Origin: Dehalococcoidia bacterium
Lineage (GTDB): Bacteria; Chloroflexota; Dehalococcoidia; Lucifugimonadales; UBA3495
Direction of reading: 5' to 3'
Length of the DNA stretch: 64,000 nucleotides
Assembly (NCBI GenBank): GCA_965222895.1
Contig: CBDCVB010000002.1
Coordinates: 1,005,608-1,069,607 of the forward strand
The translations under genes were made by a program, and so were the position numbers. Below, one piece after another: positions 24,150 through 64,000 of the stretch (position 1 is the first letter of the stretch; every line of letters starts with the position of its first letter). The notes below the pieces were generated by a model. The model was not told the origin of the DNA. It ran no database searches and saw only the letters and a program-made list of their open reading frames with translations.

Positions 24150-24975
24150 TCTCACGCGTACCCACTTTGTCAAACCAAACCAATCTACTGTCATGGCGAC
24201 CAGCGCCCACCTCACTTGTCATTGCGAGGAGCGTAGCGACGTGGCAATCTCGTTGGGGTTGAGTACGCGTCGGTGAACCATCATTGCTGCGGCGACCATT
24301 GCTACGGTAACGAGATTGCCACGCTCTGCGCTCGCAATGACAAAAGTGGGTACGCGTGAGAACCAACCTACTGCTATTGCGAGGAGCGTAGCGACGTGGC
24401 AATCTCGTTGGGGTTGAGCACACGTTAGTGAACCATCATTGCTGCGGCGACCATTGCTACGGTAACGAGATTGCCACGCTGCGCTCGCAATGACAAAAGT
24501 GGGTACGCGTGATAAACCAACCTACTGCCATTGCGAGGAGCGTAGCGACGTGGCAATCACGTTGGGGTTGAGCACATGTTAGTGAACCATCATTGCTGCG
24601 GCGACTATTGCTACGGTAACGAGATTGCCACGCTGCGCTCGCAATGACAAAAGTGGGTACGCGTGATAAACCAACCCACTGCCATTACGAGGAGCGTAGC
24701 GACGTGGCAATCTCGTTGGGGTTGAGCATATGTTAGTGAACCATCATTGCTGCGGCGACCATTGCTACGGTAACGAGATTGCCACGCTGCGCTCGCAATG
24801 ACAAAAGTGGGTACGCGTGAGAACCAACCTACTGCCATTGCGAGGAGCGTAGCGACGTGGCAATCTCGTTGGGGTTGAGCACACGTTAGTGAACCATCAT
24901 TGCTGCGGCGACTATTGCTACGGTAACGAGATTGCCACGCTGCGCTCGCTATGACAAAAGTGGGTACGCACGAAA
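24150..24975. repeat. tandem array of 5 units (~154-bp period) of a composite palindromic repeat
   Basis: The CATTGCGAGG landmark recurs at 24220, 24375, 24529, 24683 and 24836. Each unit holds the arm CATTGCGAGGAGCGTAGCGACGTGGCAATCTCG, a ~57-nt loop, the arm CGAGATTGCCACGCTGCGCTCGCAATG, then the linker ACAAAAGTGGGTACGCGTGAGAACCAACCTACTGC. Confidence 0.9.
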
Positions 24976-26974: not shown

Positions 26975-27090
26975 TGTCATTGCGAGGAGCATAGCGACGC
27001 GGCAATCTCGATGACGTTGAACACGCGCCGGCGCACCGCCGTTGCTACGGCGACGAGATTGCCACGCTACGCTCGCGATGACAAAGTGGT
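26975..27090. repeat. single copy of the palindromic repeat family
   Basis: TGTCATTGCGAGGAGCATAGCGACGCGGCAATCTCG ... CGAGATTGCCACGCTACGCTCGCGATGACAAAGTGG. Confidence 0.85.
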
Positions 27091-49743: not shown

Positions 49744-49908
49744 TCACGCGTACCCGCTTTTGTCATTGCGAGCGCAGCGTGGCAATCTCGTTCCAGTGGC
49801 GATGGTAGTTCGCCGACGTGTGCTCAACCTCATCAAGATTGCCGCGTCGCTACGCTCTTCGCAATGACAGTAGGCCAGTTGGGTTTGACAAAGTGAGTAC
49901 GCGTAAGG
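49744..49908. repeat. full-length single copy of the palindromic repeat family (outer and inner arms)
   Basis: TCACGCGTACCCGCTTTTGTCATTGCGAGCGCAGCGTGGCAATCTCG ... AGATTGCCGCGTCGCTACGCTCTTCGCAATGACAG ... TGACAAAGTGAGTACGCGTAAGG. Confidence 0.85.
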
Positions 49909-59011: not shown

Positions 59012-61930
59012 CTATACGACGGCGTCCCGCAGCACCTCGACCAGATGGCGAGCGCGGCGGCCGGTGCCGTGTTCGACCTGTTGGCGACAGGAAACACCCA
59101 TCACCGCCACTTCCCAATCCGGTTTGGCTTCGATGGCGGGGAAGAGCGAAAGCCTGCCAATCTGCATCGATATATCGTAGTGCTCCCTCTCGAAGCCGAA
59201 CGACCCAGCCATCCCGCAGCAACCGGCGTTGATTAATTCCACCTCGTAGCCAGGCGGCATTGCGAGCGCTGACAGCGAGTTGGCAGTGCCGACCATCGCC
59301 TTTTGATGACAGTGCCCGTGGAACAGCACCCGCTTGGTCAGATCGGAAAAGTCCAGATCCAGCCGGTTCTCGGCCTGGGCATTGGCCAGGAATTCGTCGA
59401 TCAAGAACGAATTATCTGCCACCAGTTTGGCCTCTGCGCCGGGGATGAAATCCGGATATTCGTCGCGGAGCGTCAGCAGGCAACTGGGTTCACAGCCGAT
59501 GATGGGCACTCCTCGGTTGGCGAGGGCCACCAGCGGAGCCATGTTTTCGCGGGCTTGCTGACGCGCCTGATCCAGCAAACCCTTGGAAATCATGGGCCGA
59601 CCGCAACACCCGCCGTTGACCAGCTCTACGCCATATCCCCCGGCTTCCAGCAACTCCACGGCGGCGATGCCAATTTCCGGGTAGTTGTAATTCATAAAGG
59701 TATCATTGTAGAGGGCCACGGTGCCGTATTTCGCCGGCGCCGTATCCTTGCGTTGGCGCTGGGCAAACCATTCCGGGAGCGCCTGTCGCGCGAATGGCGG
59801 CTGCTTCCGTTGCCCGCTGATACCCAGCATGGCAGACGCCAACCGCCGGCCAATTCCGGTGCCGGCCAGCCAGTTGGTCACTGGCGCATAGCGGCTGCCC
59901 AGCTTGTTCAGGCTGTTGATATTCGCAAACACCCGCGACCGCAGCGGCACTCCGTGTTTCTGGTGATAGTGATTCAGAAACTCGTACTTCAGCTTGGCCA
60001 TGTCCACACCGGACTCGCACTCCGCCTTGCACGCCTTGCATTCGAGGCATAAATCCAGCGCCTGATGCAGCCGCTGGTCGGTGATCGACCCCTCGGCGCC
60101 TTCCGGCATACGTCCCGACAGCGCCGCCCGCAGGAGGTTGGCGCGTCCGCGGGTGGAATGCTCCTCGTCTCGCGTCGCCATGAACGACGGGCACATCGTC
60201 CCGTCCAGCTTGCGACACGCCCCCATGCCATTGCACATTTCAACCGCGCCTGAATAACCAAAGTCCGACGTGAAATCCAGCGTGGTTTCCAGCGCCATCG
60301 GTTGGTAGGTTGGCCCGTAGCGCAAATTCTCAGTCATCGGTGGCGTGTCGATAATCTTGCCGGGATTCATTATGTCTTTGGGATCCCAGGTATGCTTCAG
60401 TTCACGGAACGCGTTGTAGATTTGGTCTCCAAACATCTTGCGGGTCCAGACGCCGCGCACGATGCCGTCTCCGTGTTCGCCGCTCATGGAGCCGCCAAAC
60501 TCCTTGATCAGGTCGGACACCGCGTCGCCGATGGATACCATCTTGTCCACGCCATCCTGGCTCTTGAGGCTGATCATGGGGCGGATGTGGAGACAGCCCA
60601 CGGCGGCGTGGCCGTAGTAACCGGCGGTAGTTCCGTGGTCGCTGACAATCTCGTCGAACCGGCGCACGAAGTCGCCCATTACTGATGGGTCAACGGCTGG
60701 GTCTTCCACGAAGGGAATGGGTTTGGCGTCCCCGCGTATGCTCATCAGCAGGCCCAGACCTCCCTTCCGGACATTCCAGACGGCTGCCTGGCCGGCCTGA
60801 TCAGAAATGTTGGCGCAAGCGTAGGCCAACCCGATATCGGACTCGAGGGCGTCCATCTTGGCCCGCAACTCGGCGTCCGATTCCCCGTAGAACTCGACAA
60901 TCAGCATCGCCCCTGGGTCGCCTTCAATGAAGGACAACAGTCGCGACTGGCCCAACGCTTCGCGACACCGGTCCAGCACCATTTTGTCAATCATCTCAAC
61001 CGATGATGGATCGTGTTGGAGCACGCGCATGGTGGCTTCGCTGGCGTCGAAAACGCTGCGGAAGTGCAGCACTGACAACGCGGTCATGGTGGGCCGCTGC
61101 ACCAGGTTGACCTTGGCCTCAGTTACCACGCACAGCGTGCCTTCCGAACCCACCACCATCCGTGCCAGGTTCACCGGGCCGTTGTTTCGTTCGTCGCCCA
61201 GAATGAATTCGTCCAGGTTGTACCCGCTCACCCGGCGCTGAATCTTGGCATAGGTGCGGTCAATCTCCTCCTTCTGCTCGCGGGCAATGCGCAGCACGCC
61301 CCGGTAGATGTCGCCCTCCAGCCCGCCGCCGCTGAGCCGGGCTTCCAGTTCGGATGCGCTCAAAGCCCCAAAGTGGGCGGAAGAACCGTCCGAAAGAATG
61401 ACGTCCAGTTCCCGGATGTGGTCCAGGGTCTTGCCGTAGATGACCGAGTGCGCGCCGCAGGTGTTGTTGCCGATGCCGCCGCCGACGCAAGCCCGGTTGG
61501 CTGTGGTTGGGTCAGGGGCGTACTGTAGGCCGTGGGCAGCCACCTGCCTGGTCAACTGCTCCAGGATGATGCCGGGCTCAACCCGCGCCCACTGTTCCTC
61601 GGCGTTGACCTCCAGCACCTTGTTGAGATACTTGCTGAAGTCCATCACTATGGCGTGGTTGACGGTCTGGCCGGCCAGGCTGGTTCCTCCGGAACGCGGC
61701 AGCACGGGGATGCCTTCCGTCGCGGCAAACTCCACCACCGCCTGCACGTCCTCAACGGTACGCGGAATGACTACGCCGATGGGCTCCATCTGGTAGATAC
61801 TGGCATCGGTGCTGTAGAGCAGGCGGGTGTACGGGTCAAAGCGCACCTCGCCGGCCACGCGCCGCTCCAGTTCGTCGGCAATGTCCTGGCGTTCCTTGCC
61901 CCGGATCCTGCGCTGCGTTGCCGTCACCAT
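59012..61930 (-). CDS. FAD-linked oxidase fused to an Fe-S/CCG-domain oxidoreductase (GlcD-GlcF-type, D-lactate/glycolate dehydrogenase-like)
   Basis: 972 aa with an FAD-binding PCMH domain (PRSGGTSLAGQ). Ferredoxin-type CxxCxxC motifs are LCLECKACKAEC and MCNGMGACRK. C-terminal CCG repeats are present. Confidence 0.85.
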   Translation of the reverse strand: MVTATQRRIRGKERQDIADELERRVAGEVRFDPYTRLLYSTDASIYQMEPIGVVIPRTVEDVQAVVEFAATEGIPVLPRSGGTSLAGQTVNHAIVMDFSKYLNKVLEVNAEEQWARVEPGIILEQLTRQVAAHGLQYAPDPTTANRACVGGGIGNNTCGAHSVIYGKTLDHIRELDVILSDGSSAHFGALSASELEARLSGGGLEGDIYRGVLRIAREQKEEIDRTYAKIQRRVSGYNLDEFILGDERNNGPVNLARMVVGSEGTLCVVTEAKVNLVQRPTMTALSVLHFRSVFDASEATMRVLQHDPSSVEMIDKMVLDRCREALGQSRLLSFIEGDPGAMLIVEFYGESDAELRAKMDALESDIGLAYACANISDQAGQAAVWNVRKGGLGLLMSIRGDAKPIPFVEDPAVDPSVMGDFVRRFDEIVSDHGTTAGYYGHAAVGCLHIRPMISLKSQDGVDKMVSIGDAVSDLIKEFGGSMSGEHGDGIVRGVWTRKMFGDQIYNAFRELKHTWDPKDIMNPGKIIDTPPMTENLRYGPTYQPMALETTLDFTSDFGYSGAVEMCNGMGACRKLDGTMCPSFMATRDEEHSTRGRANLLRAALSGRMPEGAEGSITDQRLHQALDLCLECKACKAECESGVDMAKLKYEFLNHYHQKHGVPLRSRVFANINSLNKLGSRYAPVTNWLAGTGIGRRLASAMLGISGQRKQPPFARQALPEWFAQRQRKDTAPAKYGTVALYNDTFMNYNYPEIGIAAVELLEAGGYGVELVNGGCCGRPMISKGLLDQARQQARENMAPLVALANRGVPIIGCEPSCLLTLRDEYPDFIPGAEAKLVADNSFLIDEFLANAQAENRLDLDFSDLTKRVLFHGHCHQKAMVGTANSLSALAMPPGYEVELINAGCCGMAGSFGFEREHYDISMQIGRLSLFPAIEAKPDWEVAVMGVSCRQQVEHGTGRRARHLVEVLRDAVV

Positions 61931-62011: not shown

Positions 62012-62034
62012 TCACGTGTACCCGCTTTGTCATT
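62012..62034. repeat. left part of a palindromic-repeat copy split by IS110
   Basis: TCACGTGTACCCGCTTTGTCATT matches the outer arm plus the first bases of the inner arm (compare 49744-49770). Confidence 0.7.
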
Positions 62035-62276
62035 TGTATGTTGCAAGTGTCCCGCGAATGGGCCAATTTGCGGGGTAGGTGGGAGGGGCGCGTCGTCTGT
62101 CATTAGGTGGGCCAGGCTTGGCAGCTGGGCTGCACCGTCTCGCAGTAGGACACCCCTCCCATAAGGCGCTGGGCTGCTCCGAACGGATACATGGGTGGTT
62201 GTCCCGCAATGCAAGTGTGGAGGGTCCCAGCGCCGCCATTATCACACATATCACACCAGGATCAGGGAGGCGACCG
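62035..62276 (+). ncRNA. candidate bridge-RNA-encoding 5' non-coding region of the IS110 element
   Basis: 242-nt non-coding leader upstream of the recombinase gene. It contains CGCAATG (62205-62211, complementary to the CATTGCG target junction), TGTCATT (62098-62104) and a duplicated GCAAGTGT. Confidence 0.3.
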
Positions 62277-63221
62277 ATGATGCAATCGACGGCAGGGATT
62301 GACGTGGGCAAAAGGGAACTGGACGTGTCGGTGGACGGAGATCGCGCGCGATGCTTTGCCAACACGATGGCTGGGGTTGCTGAGTTAGTGGGTTGGTTGG
62401 GGTCCCAGGGCCCGCTGCTGGCGGTTTGTGAAGCCACTGGGGGATATGAAGGATTGGTGGTGGAGGCGTTGCGCCAAGGTGGAGTACCGGTGCATATCGC
62501 CCATCCCAACCAGGTGCGAGCCTTTGCTCGGGCCTGTGGTTATCAGGCCAAGACCGACGGTTTGGACGCCATGGTGCTGTCTCGGTATGGCCAGGTCTTC
62601 CAACCGGCACCCACCCTGGCCCAGGAGGCGGACCGAGGCCAGTTGCAGGATCTGCTGCGCCGACGGGAGCAGTTGGTGGGCCAGCGCACCCAGGAGAAGA
62701 ACCGGTTGTCCCGGGTTCACAATCCAGCGGCCCAGGATTCCGTACGAAGGCACATCGCCTGGCTGGACCAGGAGATCGGGATGCTGGATGATCAGTACCA
62801 GGAACTCCTGGAGCAGAACGTGGAGTTTCGGCGACAGGTTGAGGTGTATCGCAGCGTGCCGGGTGTGGGTGTCCAGACCGCCGCCGCCCGGGTCGCCTGG
62901 TTGCCCGAGTTGGGCCGGTGTGACGGAAAGGCATTGGCCGCCCTGTGTGGCGTGGCGCCCTGGTCTCGGGACAGCGGTCAAAAGCGGGGCTACCGATCCA
63001 CCCGTGGCGGACGCCGGCCAGTACGACGCGTGCTGTACTTGGCCAGCATGGCCTCAATCCGCAGCGCCGCGGGGTTGGGACACTTCTACCGGCAACTGCG
63101 TCAGCGGGGCAAACCGGGCAAAGTGGCCCTGGTGGCAGTGATGCGGAAGTTGTTGCTGCAACTCAACGCCGTAGCTCGTCGCGGTACCCCTTGGACCGCC
63201 CAATTCCCACCCACCACCTGA
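62277..63221 (+). CDS. IS110 family transposase/recombinase (DEDD + Ser)
   Basis: MMQSTAGIDVGKRELDV, VCEATGGYE, AKTDGLDA, SVPGVGVQTAA and GLAPWSRDSG-like CGVAPWSRDSGQKRG. GGGAGG RBS at 62265-62270. Confidence 0.85.
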   Translation: MMQSTAGIDVGKRELDVSVDGDRARCFANTMAGVAELVGWLGSQGPLLAVCEATGGYEGLVVEALRQGGVPVHIAHPNQVRAFARACGYQAKTDGLDAMVLSRYGQVFQPAPTLAQEADRGQLQDLLRRREQLVGQRTQEKNRLSRVHNPAAQDSVRRHIAWLDQEIGMLDDQYQELLEQNVEFRRQVEVYRSVPGVGVQTAAARVAWLPELGRCDGKALAALCGVAPWSRDSGQKRGYRSTRGGRRPVRRVLYLASMASIRSAAGLGHFYRQLRQRGKPGKVALVAVMRKLLLQLNAVARRGTPWTAQFPPTT

Positions 63222-63249
63222 TCCTCTCTTGACACACAACACAGATACT

Positions 63250-63352
63250 GCGAGGAGCGTTGCGACGTGGCAATCTCGTTCCGGTAGCGACGGTCGTATC
63301 TTCTGCTTCGAGATTGCCACGCTTCGCTCGCAATGACAGTTTACGTAAAGGT
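63250..63352. repeat. right part of the palindromic-repeat copy split by IS110
   Basis: GCGAGGAGCGTTGCGACGTGGCAATCTCG ... CGAGATTGCCACGCTTCGCTCGCAATGACAG. Confidence 0.8.
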
Positions 63353-63464
63353 ATCCGCCGGAAGATGGGACGGGGGTGAAGGCATACCCAACCCGGCTAA
63401 TCTGATCCAAAAAAGGGGCGGCTCTACGAGCCGCCCAGGTAATTATCGGCCAAAGACCGAGGCG

Positions 63465-64000
63465 CTACGGCGTCTCGAATCTGCCCGTGGATACGATGGC
63501 TCCATCCGAAACCTGCCAGATTTCGATGGGACCCACCACGTCGCCGTGCTCATCGAAATCCACCGGGCCGGCGGCTCCCTGGTAGTTTATATCCTGCCCG
63601 GCGGCAATTAGCGCCAGGGCGCGAGCGATGCCCGCCACACCGGCCCCGACCTCTTCGCCGGGTGCATTGGAAATGGAACGCACCGCGTCCCGGATGGCCG
63701 TCGGATCAGTTGTGTTGCCAGCCTTGGCCGCGGCCAGGGCAATCAGAACCACCGCATCGTAGGTTTCGGCGGTGAATGGATGCTCCGGTTCGCCGGCGCC
63801 AAAGGAGTCGGCGTAGGATTGATTGAACGTAGCCAGCGCATCCGTCAGGGGCGAATCCTGGGCTGTGCCGAATGTGCCGTCGAGCGCTTCCCAACCGACT
63901 ACTGCCATCATCTCCGGCGACTTGGTGGCGTCGACAAACAGGAAGGTGTCAGCATAACCGCCCTCGATGGACTCCCTGAGGTAGATTTCGGCCTGACCGG
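63465..64000 (-). CDS. ABC transporter substrate-binding protein (type I PBP, branched-chain-amino-acid-like), partial at window end
   Basis: TAETYDAVVLIALAAAKAG and INYQGAAGPVDFDEHGDVVGPIEIWQV. The frame stays open to position 64000. Confidence 0.7.
   Translation of the reverse strand, partial: GQAEIYLRESIEGGYADTFLFVDATKSPEMMAVVGWEALDGTFGTAQDSPLTDALATFNQSYADSFGAGEPEHPFTAETYDAVVLIALAAAKAGNTTDPTAIRDAVRSISNAPGEEVGAGVAGIARALALIAAGQDINYQGAAGPVDFDEHGDVVGPIEIWQVSDGAIVSTGRFETP

What the first reader, a model, noticed from the sequence alone, without database searches (positions are those of the whole stretch)
62012..63352. IS110-family element inserted precisely inside a palindromic repeat, with a 242-nt leader that could encode its bridge RNA
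The repeat reads ...CCCGCTTTGTCATT up to 62034 and resumes GCGAGGAGCG... at 63250. This is exactly the GTCATT|GCGAGG point that is uninterrupted in the other copies. IS110-family elements lack inverted repeats and are known to target REP-like palindromes. Work on IS621 published in 2024 showed that they encode a bispecific 'bridge' RNA in the non-coding end upstream of the recombinase gene. Here the leader 62035-62276 is non-coding. It contains CGCAATG (62205-62211), complementary to the CATTGCG that spans the insertion point. It also contains TGTCATT (62098-62104), identical to the left target flank, and a duplicated GCAAGTGT (62043-62050 and 62211-62218). These 7- and 8-nt matches are weak on their own, but this is a natural donor-plus-target pair from which guide rules for a new ortholog could be read.
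Basis: partly seen in the sequence, partly recalled or inferred. Interest (0 to 1): 0.65.

Follow-up and report, generated by a model that had tools for sequence, protein, structure and literature searches.

The report
IS110 insertion sequence with bridge RNA
This is an ordinary but complete RNA-guided jumping gene of the IS110 family, sitting in a palindromic repeat of a Dehalococcoidia-like genome, and its guide RNA spells out both the repeat it inserted into and its own joined ends.

Summary
A 1,215-bp element (window 62035-63249) interrupts a palindromic repeat exactly between GTCATT and GCGAGG. The window holds eight uninterrupted GTCATTGCGAG sites (0.08 expected by chance). The element has no terminal inverted repeats. 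It encodes a 314-aa IS110 "RNA-guided transposase" with the five IS621 catalytic residues.

The leader is non-coding and folds as a 5' stem-loop plus two internal-loop hairpins. The fold is kept in 27 distinct relatives (97.6% of cells paired; 13 compensatory pairs against 6.0 in shuffles).
- Loop 1 carries UCUGUCAUU, identical to the left flank, and UCUCGCAG, complementary to CT+GCGAG.
- Loop 2 carries ACGGAUACA and AUGCAAG, which match the joined ends ...ACAGATACT|TGTATG.

Across eight guide classes, guides match their own flanks (80 matches against 36.8±7.3; only 1 of 40,320 permutations reaches this). Joining the ends creates a TTGACA-17-TATGTT promoter.

CGCAATG overlaps the donor guide and is not a target guide. 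The GCAAGTGT duplication is coincidence.

One small twist: the target core is TT while the donor core is CT, bridged by wobble-capable guide bases.

Verdict: a new member of a known kind, of low to moderate interest.

The parts
62012..62034 (+). Left piece of the interrupted palindromic repeat. It ends in the left target TTTGTCATT (positions 1-9, with target core TT at 62033-62034).
   Evidence: colinear with the uninterrupted copies (for example 49744-49772 ACGCGTACCCGCTTTTGTCATTGCGAG).
62035..63249 (+). Complete IS110-group insertion sequence, 1,215 bp. Ends are TGTATGTTG... and ...AACACAGATACT. It has no terminal inverted repeats and makes no target-site duplication.
   Evidence: ends shared by more than 30 related copies; no terminal inverted repeat; precise interruption.
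62037..62042 (+). -10 half (TATGTT) of the promoter that exists only when the right end is joined to the left end.
   Evidence: the joined ends give TTGACA-17 nt-TATGTT (10 of 12); no sigma-70-like site in the integrated, linear context.
62049..62234 (+). Predicted bridge RNA, about 186 nt. The 5' end is inferred from the -10 box and the 3' end from the last conserved helix.
   Evidence: conserved fold; z = -3.27; own model, 182 bits, 62048-62229; colinear with the IS621 bridge RNA.
62049..62076 (+). 5' stem-loop: 11 bp with loop GGGCCA (IS621 has CGGCCA).
   Evidence: helix 1: 6 of 11 pairs have compensatory changes..
62081..62160 (+). Target-binding loop hairpin. Outer stems are 62081-62088/62153-62160 and 62092-62094/62149-62151; the inner stem is 62106-62116/62125-62136.
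62096..62104 (+). Left target guide UCUGUCAUU. It is identical to the top strand of the left flank (8 of 9 at this copy) and so pairs with the bottom strand. Its last two bases, UU, read the TT target core.
   Evidence: It lies in a hypervariable block between invariant GCGTCG and GGTG.
62138..62145 (+). Right target guide UCUCGCAG. Its reverse complement is CTGCGAGA, that is core plus GCGAG(A). The G opposite core position 8 wobbles with the target T and pairs with the incoming donor C.
   Evidence: The geometry follows.
62146..62147 (+). Handshake guide UA of the target-binding loop, complementary to donor positions 6-7 (TA of ...GATACT).
   Evidence: Inference from the position rule, applied to the sequences.
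62165..62234 (+). Donor-binding loop hairpin. The outer stem is 62165-62180/62219-62234 and the inner stem is 62193-62195/62203-62205.
   Evidence: (I4).
62183..62191 (+). Left donor guide ACGGAUACA against the right-end terminus ACAGATACT. It has one G-T wobble at position 3 and an A at position 9, as in IS621 (ACAGUAUCA against ACAGTATCT).
62209..62217 (+). Right donor guide AUGCAAG, which pairs with CT+TGTAT of the joined ends with a G-T wobble at donor position 12. It is followed by handshake guide UG, complementary to target positions 6-7 (CA).
Evidence: A G:dT12 pair is also seen in the IS621 structure.
62265..62270 (+). Shine-Dalgarno-like GGGAGG, 6 nt before the start codon.
   Evidence: read directly from the sequence.
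62277..63221 (+). Recombinase gene, 314 aa. It has a RuvC-like DEDD domain and a Tnp domain, with catalytic residues D9, E52, D94, D97 and S233.
63229..63234 (+). -35 half (TTGACA) of the junction promoter, in the 28-nt non-coding right end.
   Evidence: TTGACA is conserved in the right ends of relatives.
63248..63249 (+). Donor core dinucleotide CT at the right terminus.
   Evidence: the right end finishes in ATACT in every copy where it was located.
63250..63337 (+). Remainder of the interrupted palindromic repeat. It begins with the right target GCGAGG. Its far arm carries a second, unoccupied target on the minus strand (63327-63337).
   Evidence: (I7, arms 63266-63278/63309-63321).

Best explanation
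Window 62035-63249 is an intact insertion sequence of the IS110 group of the IS110 family, the group that contains IS621. It is a bridge-RNA-guided recombinase element.

Shown here:
- It encodes a DEDD/serine recombinase.
- Upstream of the gene lies a structured RNA of about 186 nt with a 5' stem-loop and two internal-loop hairpins.
- Loop 1 is the target-binding loop. Its 5' side (UCUGUCAUU) is identical to the top strand left of the insertion point. Its 3' side (UCUCGCAG) is complementary to the top strand right of it.
- Loop 2 is the donor-binding loop. Its two sides match the element's own right terminus (ACAGATACT) and left terminus (TGTATG).
- The same loop positions change in step with the flanks in relatives that insert elsewhere.

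Inferred from the IS621 mechanism:
- The element excises as a circle. Joining the ends creates a TTGACA-17-TATGTT promoter that transcribes the bridge RNA and the recombinase.
- The RNA holds the circle junction and a GTCATT|GCGAG site of the host's palindromic repeat in one recombinase tetramer.
- Top strands are cut after core position 9 and exchanged.
- This leaves the target core (TT) at the left junction and the donor core (CT) at the right junction, as seen in the copies of this clade.
- The C/T difference at core position 8 is bridged by wobble-capable guide bases: U in the left target guide and G in the right target guide.
For: Protein:
- PF01548 (3.1e-24) and PF02371 (5.1e-14).
- NF033542 'IS110 family RNA-guided transposase', 208 bits against a cutoff of 140.
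- IS621 transposase 8wt6, E=2.4e-38.
- D9/E52/D94/D97/S233 align with IS621 D11/E60/D102/D105/S241.

Boundaries and target:
- Identical termini in more than 30 copies.
- The repeat is restored when the element is removed.
- 17 of 18 left junctions read GTCATT| and 15 of 15 right junctions read |GCGAG in about 20 independent sites.
- 8 unoccupied sites in the window against 0.08 expected.

RNA:
- The consensus fold has 44 pairs; 97.6% of cells are paired.
- 13 pairs have compensatory changes, against 6.0±1.5 in shuffles (0 of 500) and 2-5 in slid controls.
- The window's minimum free energy has z = -3.27.
- A model built from the relatives finds one copy upstream of the gene in every locus that keeps its 5' part (51 hits).
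- With filters off, the same model aligns end to end with the IS621 bridge RNA as the top hit at that locus (15 bits, E about 0.004). Guide segments fall on IS621's guide segments.

Guides:
- Across 8 guide classes, cognate guide-flank matches total 80 against 36.8±7.3 for permuted pairings. Only the true pairing, 1 of 40,320 permutations, reaches 80.

Promoter:
[quoted passage not shown] None is found in the integrated context.

Geometry and definitions come from PMC11208160 and PMC11208158.
Against: - There is no expression or activity data. The RNA ends are inferred, not mapped.
- No circle junction was found in the metagenome contigs. No empty allele of this exact locus was found. Mobility of this particular copy is therefore unproven.
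- The match of the model to the IS621 bridge RNA is weak (15 bits), needed filters off, and was scored over only 3.8 kb.
- At this copy the left target guide mismatches the flank at position 2 (C against T).
- The target core (TT) differs from the CT that Durrant et al. report as strongly preferred for IS621.
- Rfam gives no hit. This is uninformative, because Rfam does not detect the IS621 bridge RNA either.
Confidence: 0.9

Rival explanations
1. The element is correctly identified, but this copy is an immobile relic. It keeps the sequence of an IS110 element and no longer transposes.
For: There is only one copy in the 64-kb window. Eight perfect target sites nearby are unoccupied. No circle junction and no empty allele were found. 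The exact protein is not on record elsewhere.
Against: The open reading frame is full length with all five catalytic residues. All helices of the RNA are intact, and the outer stem of the second hairpin pairs better than in the 98%-identical copy L011. Both halves of the junction promoter are intact. Near-identical copies sit at other sites in a related genome (L010 and L011). The negative scans covered collections that may not contain this organism.
Confidence: 0.12
2. Site choice is made mainly by the protein recognising the palindrome's structure or sequence. The leader's matches to the flanks are incidental, or play only a secondary role.
For: The target lies at the base of a long palindrome. 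A 2026 preprint reports that ISPpu10 also needs a hairpin in the target DNA. All copies of this clade use a single site, so within the clade RNA and protein recognition cannot be told apart.
Against: Relatives with different loop sequences insert at different sites that match their loops, and several of those sites are not in this repeat. The guide blocks are the only hypervariable segments between invariant RNA columns. A structural requirement could still exist in addition to RNA guiding.
Confidence: 0.06
3. The leader is coding. The recombinase would start at GTG 62079 and be 380 aa long, so there would be no RNA gene.
For: An open frame runs from 62079 to 63221. Some database homologues are annotated at 376-411 aa.
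Against: Relatives have in-frame stops 3-141 nt upstream of the ATG, and their leader lengths differ by non-multiples of three. The Pfam domain starts at residue 6 of the 314-aa form. A Shine-Dalgarno-like GGGAGG lies 6 nt before ATG 62277. Variation in the leader follows base pairing, not codons.
Confidence: 0.01
4. It is an IS1111-group element whose guide (seekRNA) is encoded in the right end.
For: Both groups share the same protein domains.
Against: The non-coding right end is only 28 nt, against 242 nt for the left end. There are no 7-17-bp subterminal inverted repeats. The structured RNA is in the left end.
Confidence: 0.01

Closest known systems
IS621 of Escherichia coli (IS110 group), with its 177-nt bridge RNA (Durrant et al. 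2024, PMC11208160; Hiraizumi et al. 2024, PMC11208158)
   Same: - Same protein domains and catalytic residues.
- Same element layout: a long non-coding left end that holds the RNA, a short right end, no terminal inverted repeats, and termini TGTAT... and ...ATxCT.
- Same promoter geometry: a -35 box 15 nt from the right terminus and a -10 box starting 2 nt into the left end.
- Same RNA plan: 5' stem-loop with a GGCCA loop, then a target-binding loop, then a donor-binding loop.
- The same unexpected A at position 9 of the left donor guide, and a G-T pair at donor position 12.
- Both insert into host palindromic repeats.
   Different: - Only 32% protein identity. The RNA similarity is weak (15 bits).
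- The right target guide is about 7-8 nt instead of 4.
- The right donor guide pairs contiguously, without the two flipped-out U residues.
- About 40 nt separate the RNA from the start codon.
- The target core is TT while the donor core is CT.
- The host is a Dehalococcoidia-type genome with high G+C content.
ISPpu10 and other REP-targeting IS110 elements of Pseudomonas (Tobes and Pareja 2006, cited in PMC11208160; bioRxiv 10.64898/2026.03.19.712850)
   Same: These are IS110-family elements that insert at one fixed position in a multi-copy intergenic palindrome, guided by a bridge RNA.
   Different: The ISPpu10 RNA is reported to lack the 5' stem-loop and to need a hairpin in the target DNA. 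The element here keeps the 5' stem-loop. Whether the palindrome itself is required was not tested.
IS1111 group (IS4321, IS5075, IS1111) with a seekRNA in the right end
   Same: Same recombinase family and the same principle of RNA-guided site choice.
   Different: In IS1111 elements the RNA is in a long right end and there are 7-17-bp subterminal inverted repeats. Here the right end is 28 nt and the RNA is in the left end.

Membership tests
IS110 family, IS110 group (bridge-RNA recombinase elements) | Recombinase with an N-terminal RuvC-like DEDD domain and a C-terminal Tnp domain carrying the catalytic serine | tested here: met
   PF01548 and PF02371. NF033542, 208 bits against cutoff 140. 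D9/E52/D94/D97/S233 aligned with IS621 D11/E60/D102/D105/S241. IS621 structure 8wt6, E=2.4e-38.
IS110 family, IS110 group (bridge-RNA recombinase elements) | No terminal inverted repeats and no target-site duplication; insertion at a fixed sequence | tested here: met
   No inverted repeat joins the termini. The repeat is restored exactly when 62035-63249 is removed. About 20 independent copies sit at GTCATT|GCGAG.
IS110 family, IS110 group (bridge-RNA recombinase elements) | Left non-coding end much longer than the right, with the structured RNA in the left end | tested here: met
   The left end is 242 nt and the right end 28 nt. The RNA model hits 62048-62229. In 51 related hits the RNA is always upstream of the gene on the same strand.
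IS110 family, IS110 group (bridge-RNA recombinase elements) | RNA architecture: 5' stem-loop followed by two hairpins, each with a large internal loop | tested here: met
   RNAalifold consensus. 97.6% of cells paired; 13 compensatory pairs against 6.0±1.5 in shuffles. End-to-end colinear alignment with the IS621 bridge RNA (weak, 15 bits).
IS110 family, IS110 group (bridge-RNA recombinase elements) | First loop: the 5' side is identical to the left target including the core; the 3' side is complementary to the core plus the right target; both covary with the flanks | tested here: met
   UCUGUCAUU against TTTGTCATT, and UCUCGCAG against (C/T)TGCGAGG. Permutation test over 8 guide classes: 80 against 36.8±7.3, reached by 1 of 40,320 permutations.
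IS110 family, IS110 group (bridge-RNA recombinase elements) | Second loop matches the joined right end-left end (donor) sequence | tested here: met
   ACGGAUACA against ACAGATACT, and AUGCAAG against CTTGTAT, with one wobble each. Partial covariation is seen: L028 has AACAGAUAC with right end ACAGATACT, and L026 has ACGGAUAC with ACGGATACT. The donor is nearly invariant, so the statistical power is low.
IS110 family, IS110 group (bridge-RNA recombinase elements) | [quoted passage not shown] | tested here: inconclusive
   The donor core is CT in every copy where the right end was located. The target core is TT in this clade (17 of 18 left junctions, and all uninterrupted repeats). It is CT in the sister clades. 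The invariant second T is kept. Hiraizumi et al. state that the first position is less conserved and that TT supports recombination.
IS110 family, IS110 group (bridge-RNA recombinase elements) | Sigma-70 promoter reconstituted across the joined ends | tested here: met
   TTGACA-17-TATGTT only in the joined sequence. None in the linear context. This is a sequence match only; transcription was not measured.
IS110 family, IS110 group (bridge-RNA recombinase elements) | The RNA is expressed, binds the recombinase, and directs recombination | not testable with these tools
   This needs RNA sequencing and recombination assays.
IS1111 group | Long right end encoding the RNA, and subterminal inverted repeats of 7-17 bp | tested here: not met
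   The right end is 28 nt. No such repeats are present.

The most novel reading that the evidence does not exclude
This clade may have evolved to recombine a donor and a target whose cores differ (donor CT, target TT). It would do so by placing wobble-capable bases at core position 8 of the target guides. U in the left guide can pair with A or G on the bottom strand. G in the right guide can pair with T or C on the top strand.

In the copies of this clade, the left junction keeps the target's T (17 of 18) and the right junction keeps the donor's C (15 of 15). If position 8 lies in the heteroduplex region, this is natural-genome evidence that only the top-strand product survives. That would fit single-strand transfer or copy-and-paste models of IS110 transposition.
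Probability: 0.3. Interest if true: 0.4.

Novelty: new member of a known kind. Interest (0 to 1): 0.27.

Why it matters
It adds a fully decoded natural bridge-recombinase system from a Dehalococcoidia-type, high-G+C host. The decoded parts are the recombinase, an RNA of about 186 nt, an 11-nt effective target (GTCATT|GCGAG) and the donor sequence. Sister elements already show at least eight different natural guide sets on the same scaffold. That makes a ready comparative set for anyone mining orthologues, and it includes a longer right target guide and a natural TT-target/CT-donor core pair.

For genome annotation:
- The 380-aa open frame is a mis-call risk.
- The 242-nt "intergenic" leader is an RNA gene.
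- The palindromic repeats act as landing pads that keep the element out of genes.

It does not change how these elements are understood to work.

Tried and rejected
- **Rfam scan of the region.** Only chance-level hits. The control showed Rfam 15 does not detect the IS621 bridge RNA either, so this test says nothing.
- **Exact-protein look-ups.** The recombinase and the neighbouring 972-aa dehydrogenase are not on record, so no second assembly of this locus was available.
- **Metagenome scan for the unique left flank.** Intended to find an empty or filled allele; no match.
- **Metagenome scan for the circle junction AACACRGATACTTGTATGTTG.** No match.
- **Short contigs of about 1.2 kb carrying homologues.** I suspected assembled circles. 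They are ordinary partial or complete copies with repeat flanks, and they add two more insertion sites.
- **RNA model against IS621 with default filters.** This missed IS621. Only the unfiltered search found it.
- **CGCAATG as a target guide.** Rejected, because it varies among copies that share the same target.
- **The GCAAGTGT duplication as functional.** Rejected, because only one of the two copies is conserved.
- **A coding leader and an IS1111-type RNA in the right end.** Both considered and rejected.
Full report
**1. What is in the sequence**

Window 62012-63352 holds a palindromic repeat split by a 1,215-bp insert. The left flank ends ...CACGTGTACCCGCTTTGTCATT at 62034. The repeat resumes GCGAGGAGCGTTGCGACGTGGCAATCTCG... 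at 63250, and its second arm ends ...CGAGATTGCCACGCTTCGCTCGCAATGACAG.

The same repeat occurs uninterrupted elsewhere in the window. There is a five-unit tandem array at 24218-24955, and single units near 26976 and 49762. With 62035-63249 removed, the sequence aligns colinearly with those copies straight through TGTCATTGCGAGGAGCG. The 11-mer GTCATTGCGAG occurs eight times exactly in the window, against 0.08 expected by chance.

**2. The insert is an IS110-family element with sharply defined ends**

- The only long open frame with homologues is 62277-63221 (+), 314 aa.
- It matches PF01548 (DEDD_Tnp_IS110, 3.1e-24) and PF02371 (Transposase_20, 5.1e-14).
- It scores 208 bits against NCBIfam NF033542, "IS110 family RNA-guided transposase", cutoff 140.
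- Its best solved-structure relatives are the IS621 transposase (8wt6, E=2.4e-38) and ISCro4.
- It is 32% identical to IS621. D9, E52, D94, D97 and S233 align with IS621's catalytic D11, E60, D102, D105 and S241.

A genome scan returned 52 related loci, all in Dehalococcoidia or Chloroflexota metagenome-assembled genomes. In more than 30 of them similarity to the window starts exactly at TGTATGTTG and stops exactly at AACAC(A/G)GATACT. This fixes the element at 62035-63249. No inverted repeat joins the termini. The left non-coding end is 242 nt and the right one 28 nt. That is the IS110-group layout rather than the IS1111 one (definitions in PMC11208160).

**3. The repeat is the target**

Copies whose recombinase is about 70-98% identical to the window's lie at about 20 different genomic places: the window, L001/L002, L003-L012, L031, L032, L034, L039, L043, L051, L055 and L056.
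- 17 of 18 visible left junctions read GTCATT|. L043 reads GTCATC|.
- 15 of 15 visible right junctions read |GCGAG.
- The right junction is usually followed by the ...GCGACGTGGCAATC(T/C)CG arm of the palindrome.

**4. The leader is an RNA gene, not coding sequence**

An open frame from GTG 62079 could extend the protein to 380 aa. Three things argue against it. Relatives carry in-frame stops 3-141 nt upstream of the ATG. Their leader lengths are 215, 217, 218, 221, 233, 234, 238 and 242 nt, so they differ by non-multiples of three. A GGGAGG lies 6 nt before ATG 62277.

The 27 distinct leaders align well (A1) and give this consensus fold:
- a 5' stem-loop (window 62049-62076);
- a hairpin with a large internal loop (62081-62160);
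- a second hairpin with a large internal loop (62165-62234).

On that fold 97.6% of cells are standard pairs. 13 of 44 pairs show changes on both sides, against 6.0±1.5 in column shuffles (0 of 500 reach 13) and 2-5 when partners are slid by 1-3 columns. The window's own minimum-free-energy fold reproduces the three elements, at -97.4 kcal/mol with z = -3.27.

A covariance model built from 21 of these leaders (R1) gave the following.
- It scores the window at 182 bits over 62048-62229.
- It gives 51 hits in the related loci. Every locus that keeps its 5' part has one copy upstream of the gene on the same strand, and sequences left out of the model are found too.

**5. Relationship to the IS621 bridge RNA**

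I recalled the 177-nt IS621 bridge RNA sequence from memory and checked it. It matches E. coli genomes at 100% identity, immediately upstream of genes annotated "IS110-like element IS621 family transposase".

With filters off, model R1 aligns end to end (model positions 1-180) with L054:1875-2050. This is the best hit at that locus, at 15 bits and E about 0.004 over 3.8 kb. The shared GGCCA loop aligns, and the four guide blocks fall on IS621's AUCGGGCCU, GCGUAG, ACAGUAUCA and AUUUGCAAG. The match is weak but colinear.

Rfam 15 finds nothing in the window. It also finds nothing for IS621 itself, so it has no model for this RNA class.

**6. Reading the guides**

Durrant et al. define four guides. 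[quoted passage not shown] The two donor guides do the same for the joined right end-left end. [quoted passage not shown]

| Guide | Window coordinates | RNA | DNA partner | Note |
|---|---|---|---|---|
| Left target guide | 62096-62104 | UCUGUCAUU | left flank TTTGTCATT | 8 of 9 here; the usual flank elsewhere is CTGTCATT |
| Right target guide | 62138-62145 | UCUCGCAG | reverse complement CTGCGAGA = core + GCGAG(A) | G opposite core position 8 |
| Left donor guide | 62183-62191 | ACGGAUACA | right terminus ACAGATACT | one G-T wobble; A at position 9, as in IS621 |
| Right donor guide | 62209-62215 | AUGCAAG | CT+TGTAT of the joined ends | G-T wobble at donor position 12, also seen in the IS621 structure |

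The two bases 3' of each right-hand guide fit the "handshake" rule of Hiraizumi et al.. UA at 62146-62147 is complementary to donor positions 6-7 (TA). UG at 62216-62217 is complementary to target positions 6-7 (CA). This last point is inference from position, and the UG is conserved in clades whose targets differ.

**7. The guides covary with the flanks**

The guide blocks are the only hypervariable stretches between invariant RNA columns. Sister elements carry other guides and sit at matching sites:

| Locus | Left guide | Left flank | Reverse complement of right guide | Right flank |
|---|---|---|---|---|
| L026 | AGGCAACU | AGGCAACT | CTGTTCGA | GTTCGG |
| L033 | CAGGUACU | CAGGTACT | CTTGGGCT | TGGGCA |
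| L037 | UCACCACU | ACACCACT | CTTGACGC | TGACGT |
| L028 | GGGACACU | GGGACACT | CTACTTG | ACTTTG |
| L041 | (not listed) | (not listed) | CTGTCCAG | GTCCAG |

Scoring 13 non-core positions for eight distinct guide classes, cognate pairs total 80 matches, a mean of 10.0 per pair. Non-cognate pairs average 3.8. Only the true pairing, 1 of all 40,320 permutations, reaches 80; the permutation mean is 36.8 with sd 7.3.

**8. The promoter**

No sigma-70-like site is found in the integrated context. Joining the right end to the left end gives TTGACA (63229-63234), a 17-nt spacer and TATGTT (62037-62042), which is 10 of 12 matches. The geometry is the same as in IS621, TTGCAG-17-TATTAT. TTGACA and TGTATGTTG are conserved in the relatives. 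A start about 7 nt after the -10 box would fall at the base of the 5' stem-loop, near 62049. That start site is inferred.

**9. How it most likely works**

Steps shown here: the recombinase type, the element ends, the target, the RNA fold, and the guide complementarity with its covariation.

Steps inferred from IS621:
- The element excises to a circle.
- The junction promoter transcribes the bridge RNA.
- The RNA's two loops hold the circle junction and a GTCATT|GCGAG site in one recombinase tetramer.
- Top strands are cut after core position 9 and exchanged, and the Holliday junction is then resolved.

**10. The one unusual detail: the cores differ**

Sister clades have CT at both junctions. 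This clade has TT at the left junction (the native repeat sequence) and CT at the right terminus.
- The left target guide has followed the target: it ends in UU instead of CU.
- The right target guide keeps G opposite position 8. It can wobble with the target T, and after exchange it forms a Watson-Crick pair with the incoming donor C.

Top-strand cleavage after position 9 predicts exactly the junctions seen, GTCATT|TGTATG and GATACT|GCGAG. Hiraizumi et al. note that the first core base is less conserved and that TT supports recombination. This is therefore a variation within the known scheme.

The left junction keeps T and the right junction keeps C in the copies examined. This agrees with top-strand-determined products, and with a recent preprint proposing single-strand, copy-and-paste behaviour. 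It does not prove either.

**11.

- TGTCATT (62098-62104) is part of the left target guide. This assignment is correct.
- CGCAATG (62205-62211) overlaps the right donor guide. It differs among copies with the same target (CGCATGA in L005-L009, CGCATTA in L039), so it is not a target guide. The real right target guide, 62138-62145, was missed.
- GCAAGTGT: the copy at 62211-62218 belongs to the invariant CAAGUGUGGAG of the second loop. The copy at 62043-62050 lies in a segment that varies freely. The duplication is coincidence.

**12. Limits**

There are no expression or activity data. Scans for an empty allele and for a circle junction were negative, but the collections may not contain this organism. 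A requirement for the palindrome's structure in addition to RNA pairing, as reported for ISPpu10, cannot be excluded.

**13. Verdict**

This is a textbook IS110-group bridge-recombinase element, intact and fully decoded, in a new host lineage. It is a new member of a known kind. Its interest is low to moderate, mainly as a well-documented orthologue set with natural guide diversity and a TT/CT core pair.

Noticed in passing
window 24218-24955: There is a tandem array of five units (period about 154 bp) of the same palindromic repeat family. It contributes five of the eight unoccupied GTCATTGCGAG target sites in the window. Further single units lie near 26976-27082 and 49744-49870.
   Followed up: partly
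L054 1773-1872 (E. coli NZ_CP024240.1, IS621 locus): A partial second copy of the IS621 left end (TGTATTATCCCTCCAGTGCAGAG...ATCGGGCCT) is joined to a full copy exactly after the DNA that encodes the left target guide (ATCGGGCCT|TGTATT). It looks as if IS621 had inserted into another copy's guide-coding sequence, which mimics its target.
   Followed up: no
L042 2281-3488 and L040: In this relative the left target guide (GUACCCAC) matches ACGCGTACCCAC, the outer-flank motif of the same repeat family (compare window 24157-24172). Its right target guide matches only 2 of 6 bases of its right flank. This may be an insertion guided by one half-site only.
   Followed up: no
L003 (right end displaced to about 4914) and L040 (RNA at 24-204, gene fragment from 2501): These related copies are interrupted by about 1.4-2.3 kb of other DNA. 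They may be nested insertions into the element.
   Followed up: no
L031 and L043, start of the recombinase gene: The leader is about 30 nt longer (271-272 nt), and there is a duplicated VAGIDVAGIDV at the start of the open frame. This looks like a small tandem duplication at the start of the gene.
   Followed up: no
window 62079-63221, and database proteins P0027, P0033, P0071, P0081, P0108: The leader is open in the recombinase frame in some copies. Several database homologues are annotated at 376-411 aa, so their N-termini probably run into the bridge RNA gene.
   Followed up: partly
window 63416-63436 (-): A strong terminator-like hairpin (GGGCGGCTC...GAGCCGCCC followed by a T run) lies downstream of the converging minus-strand gene that ends at 63465. 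It gave a sub-threshold Rfam hit to suhB/mmgR (19.7 bits, gathering score 41).
   Followed up: no
window 59012-61930 (-): The neighbouring gene encodes a 972-aa fusion of an FAD-linked oxidase and an Fe-S/GlpC-like domain. It is similar to, but scores below the cutoff for, D-2-hydroxyglutarate dehydrogenase YdiJ (621 bits, cutoff 1350). Its start codon lies about 100 bp from the element, so the insertion sits in its upstream region.
   Followed up: no
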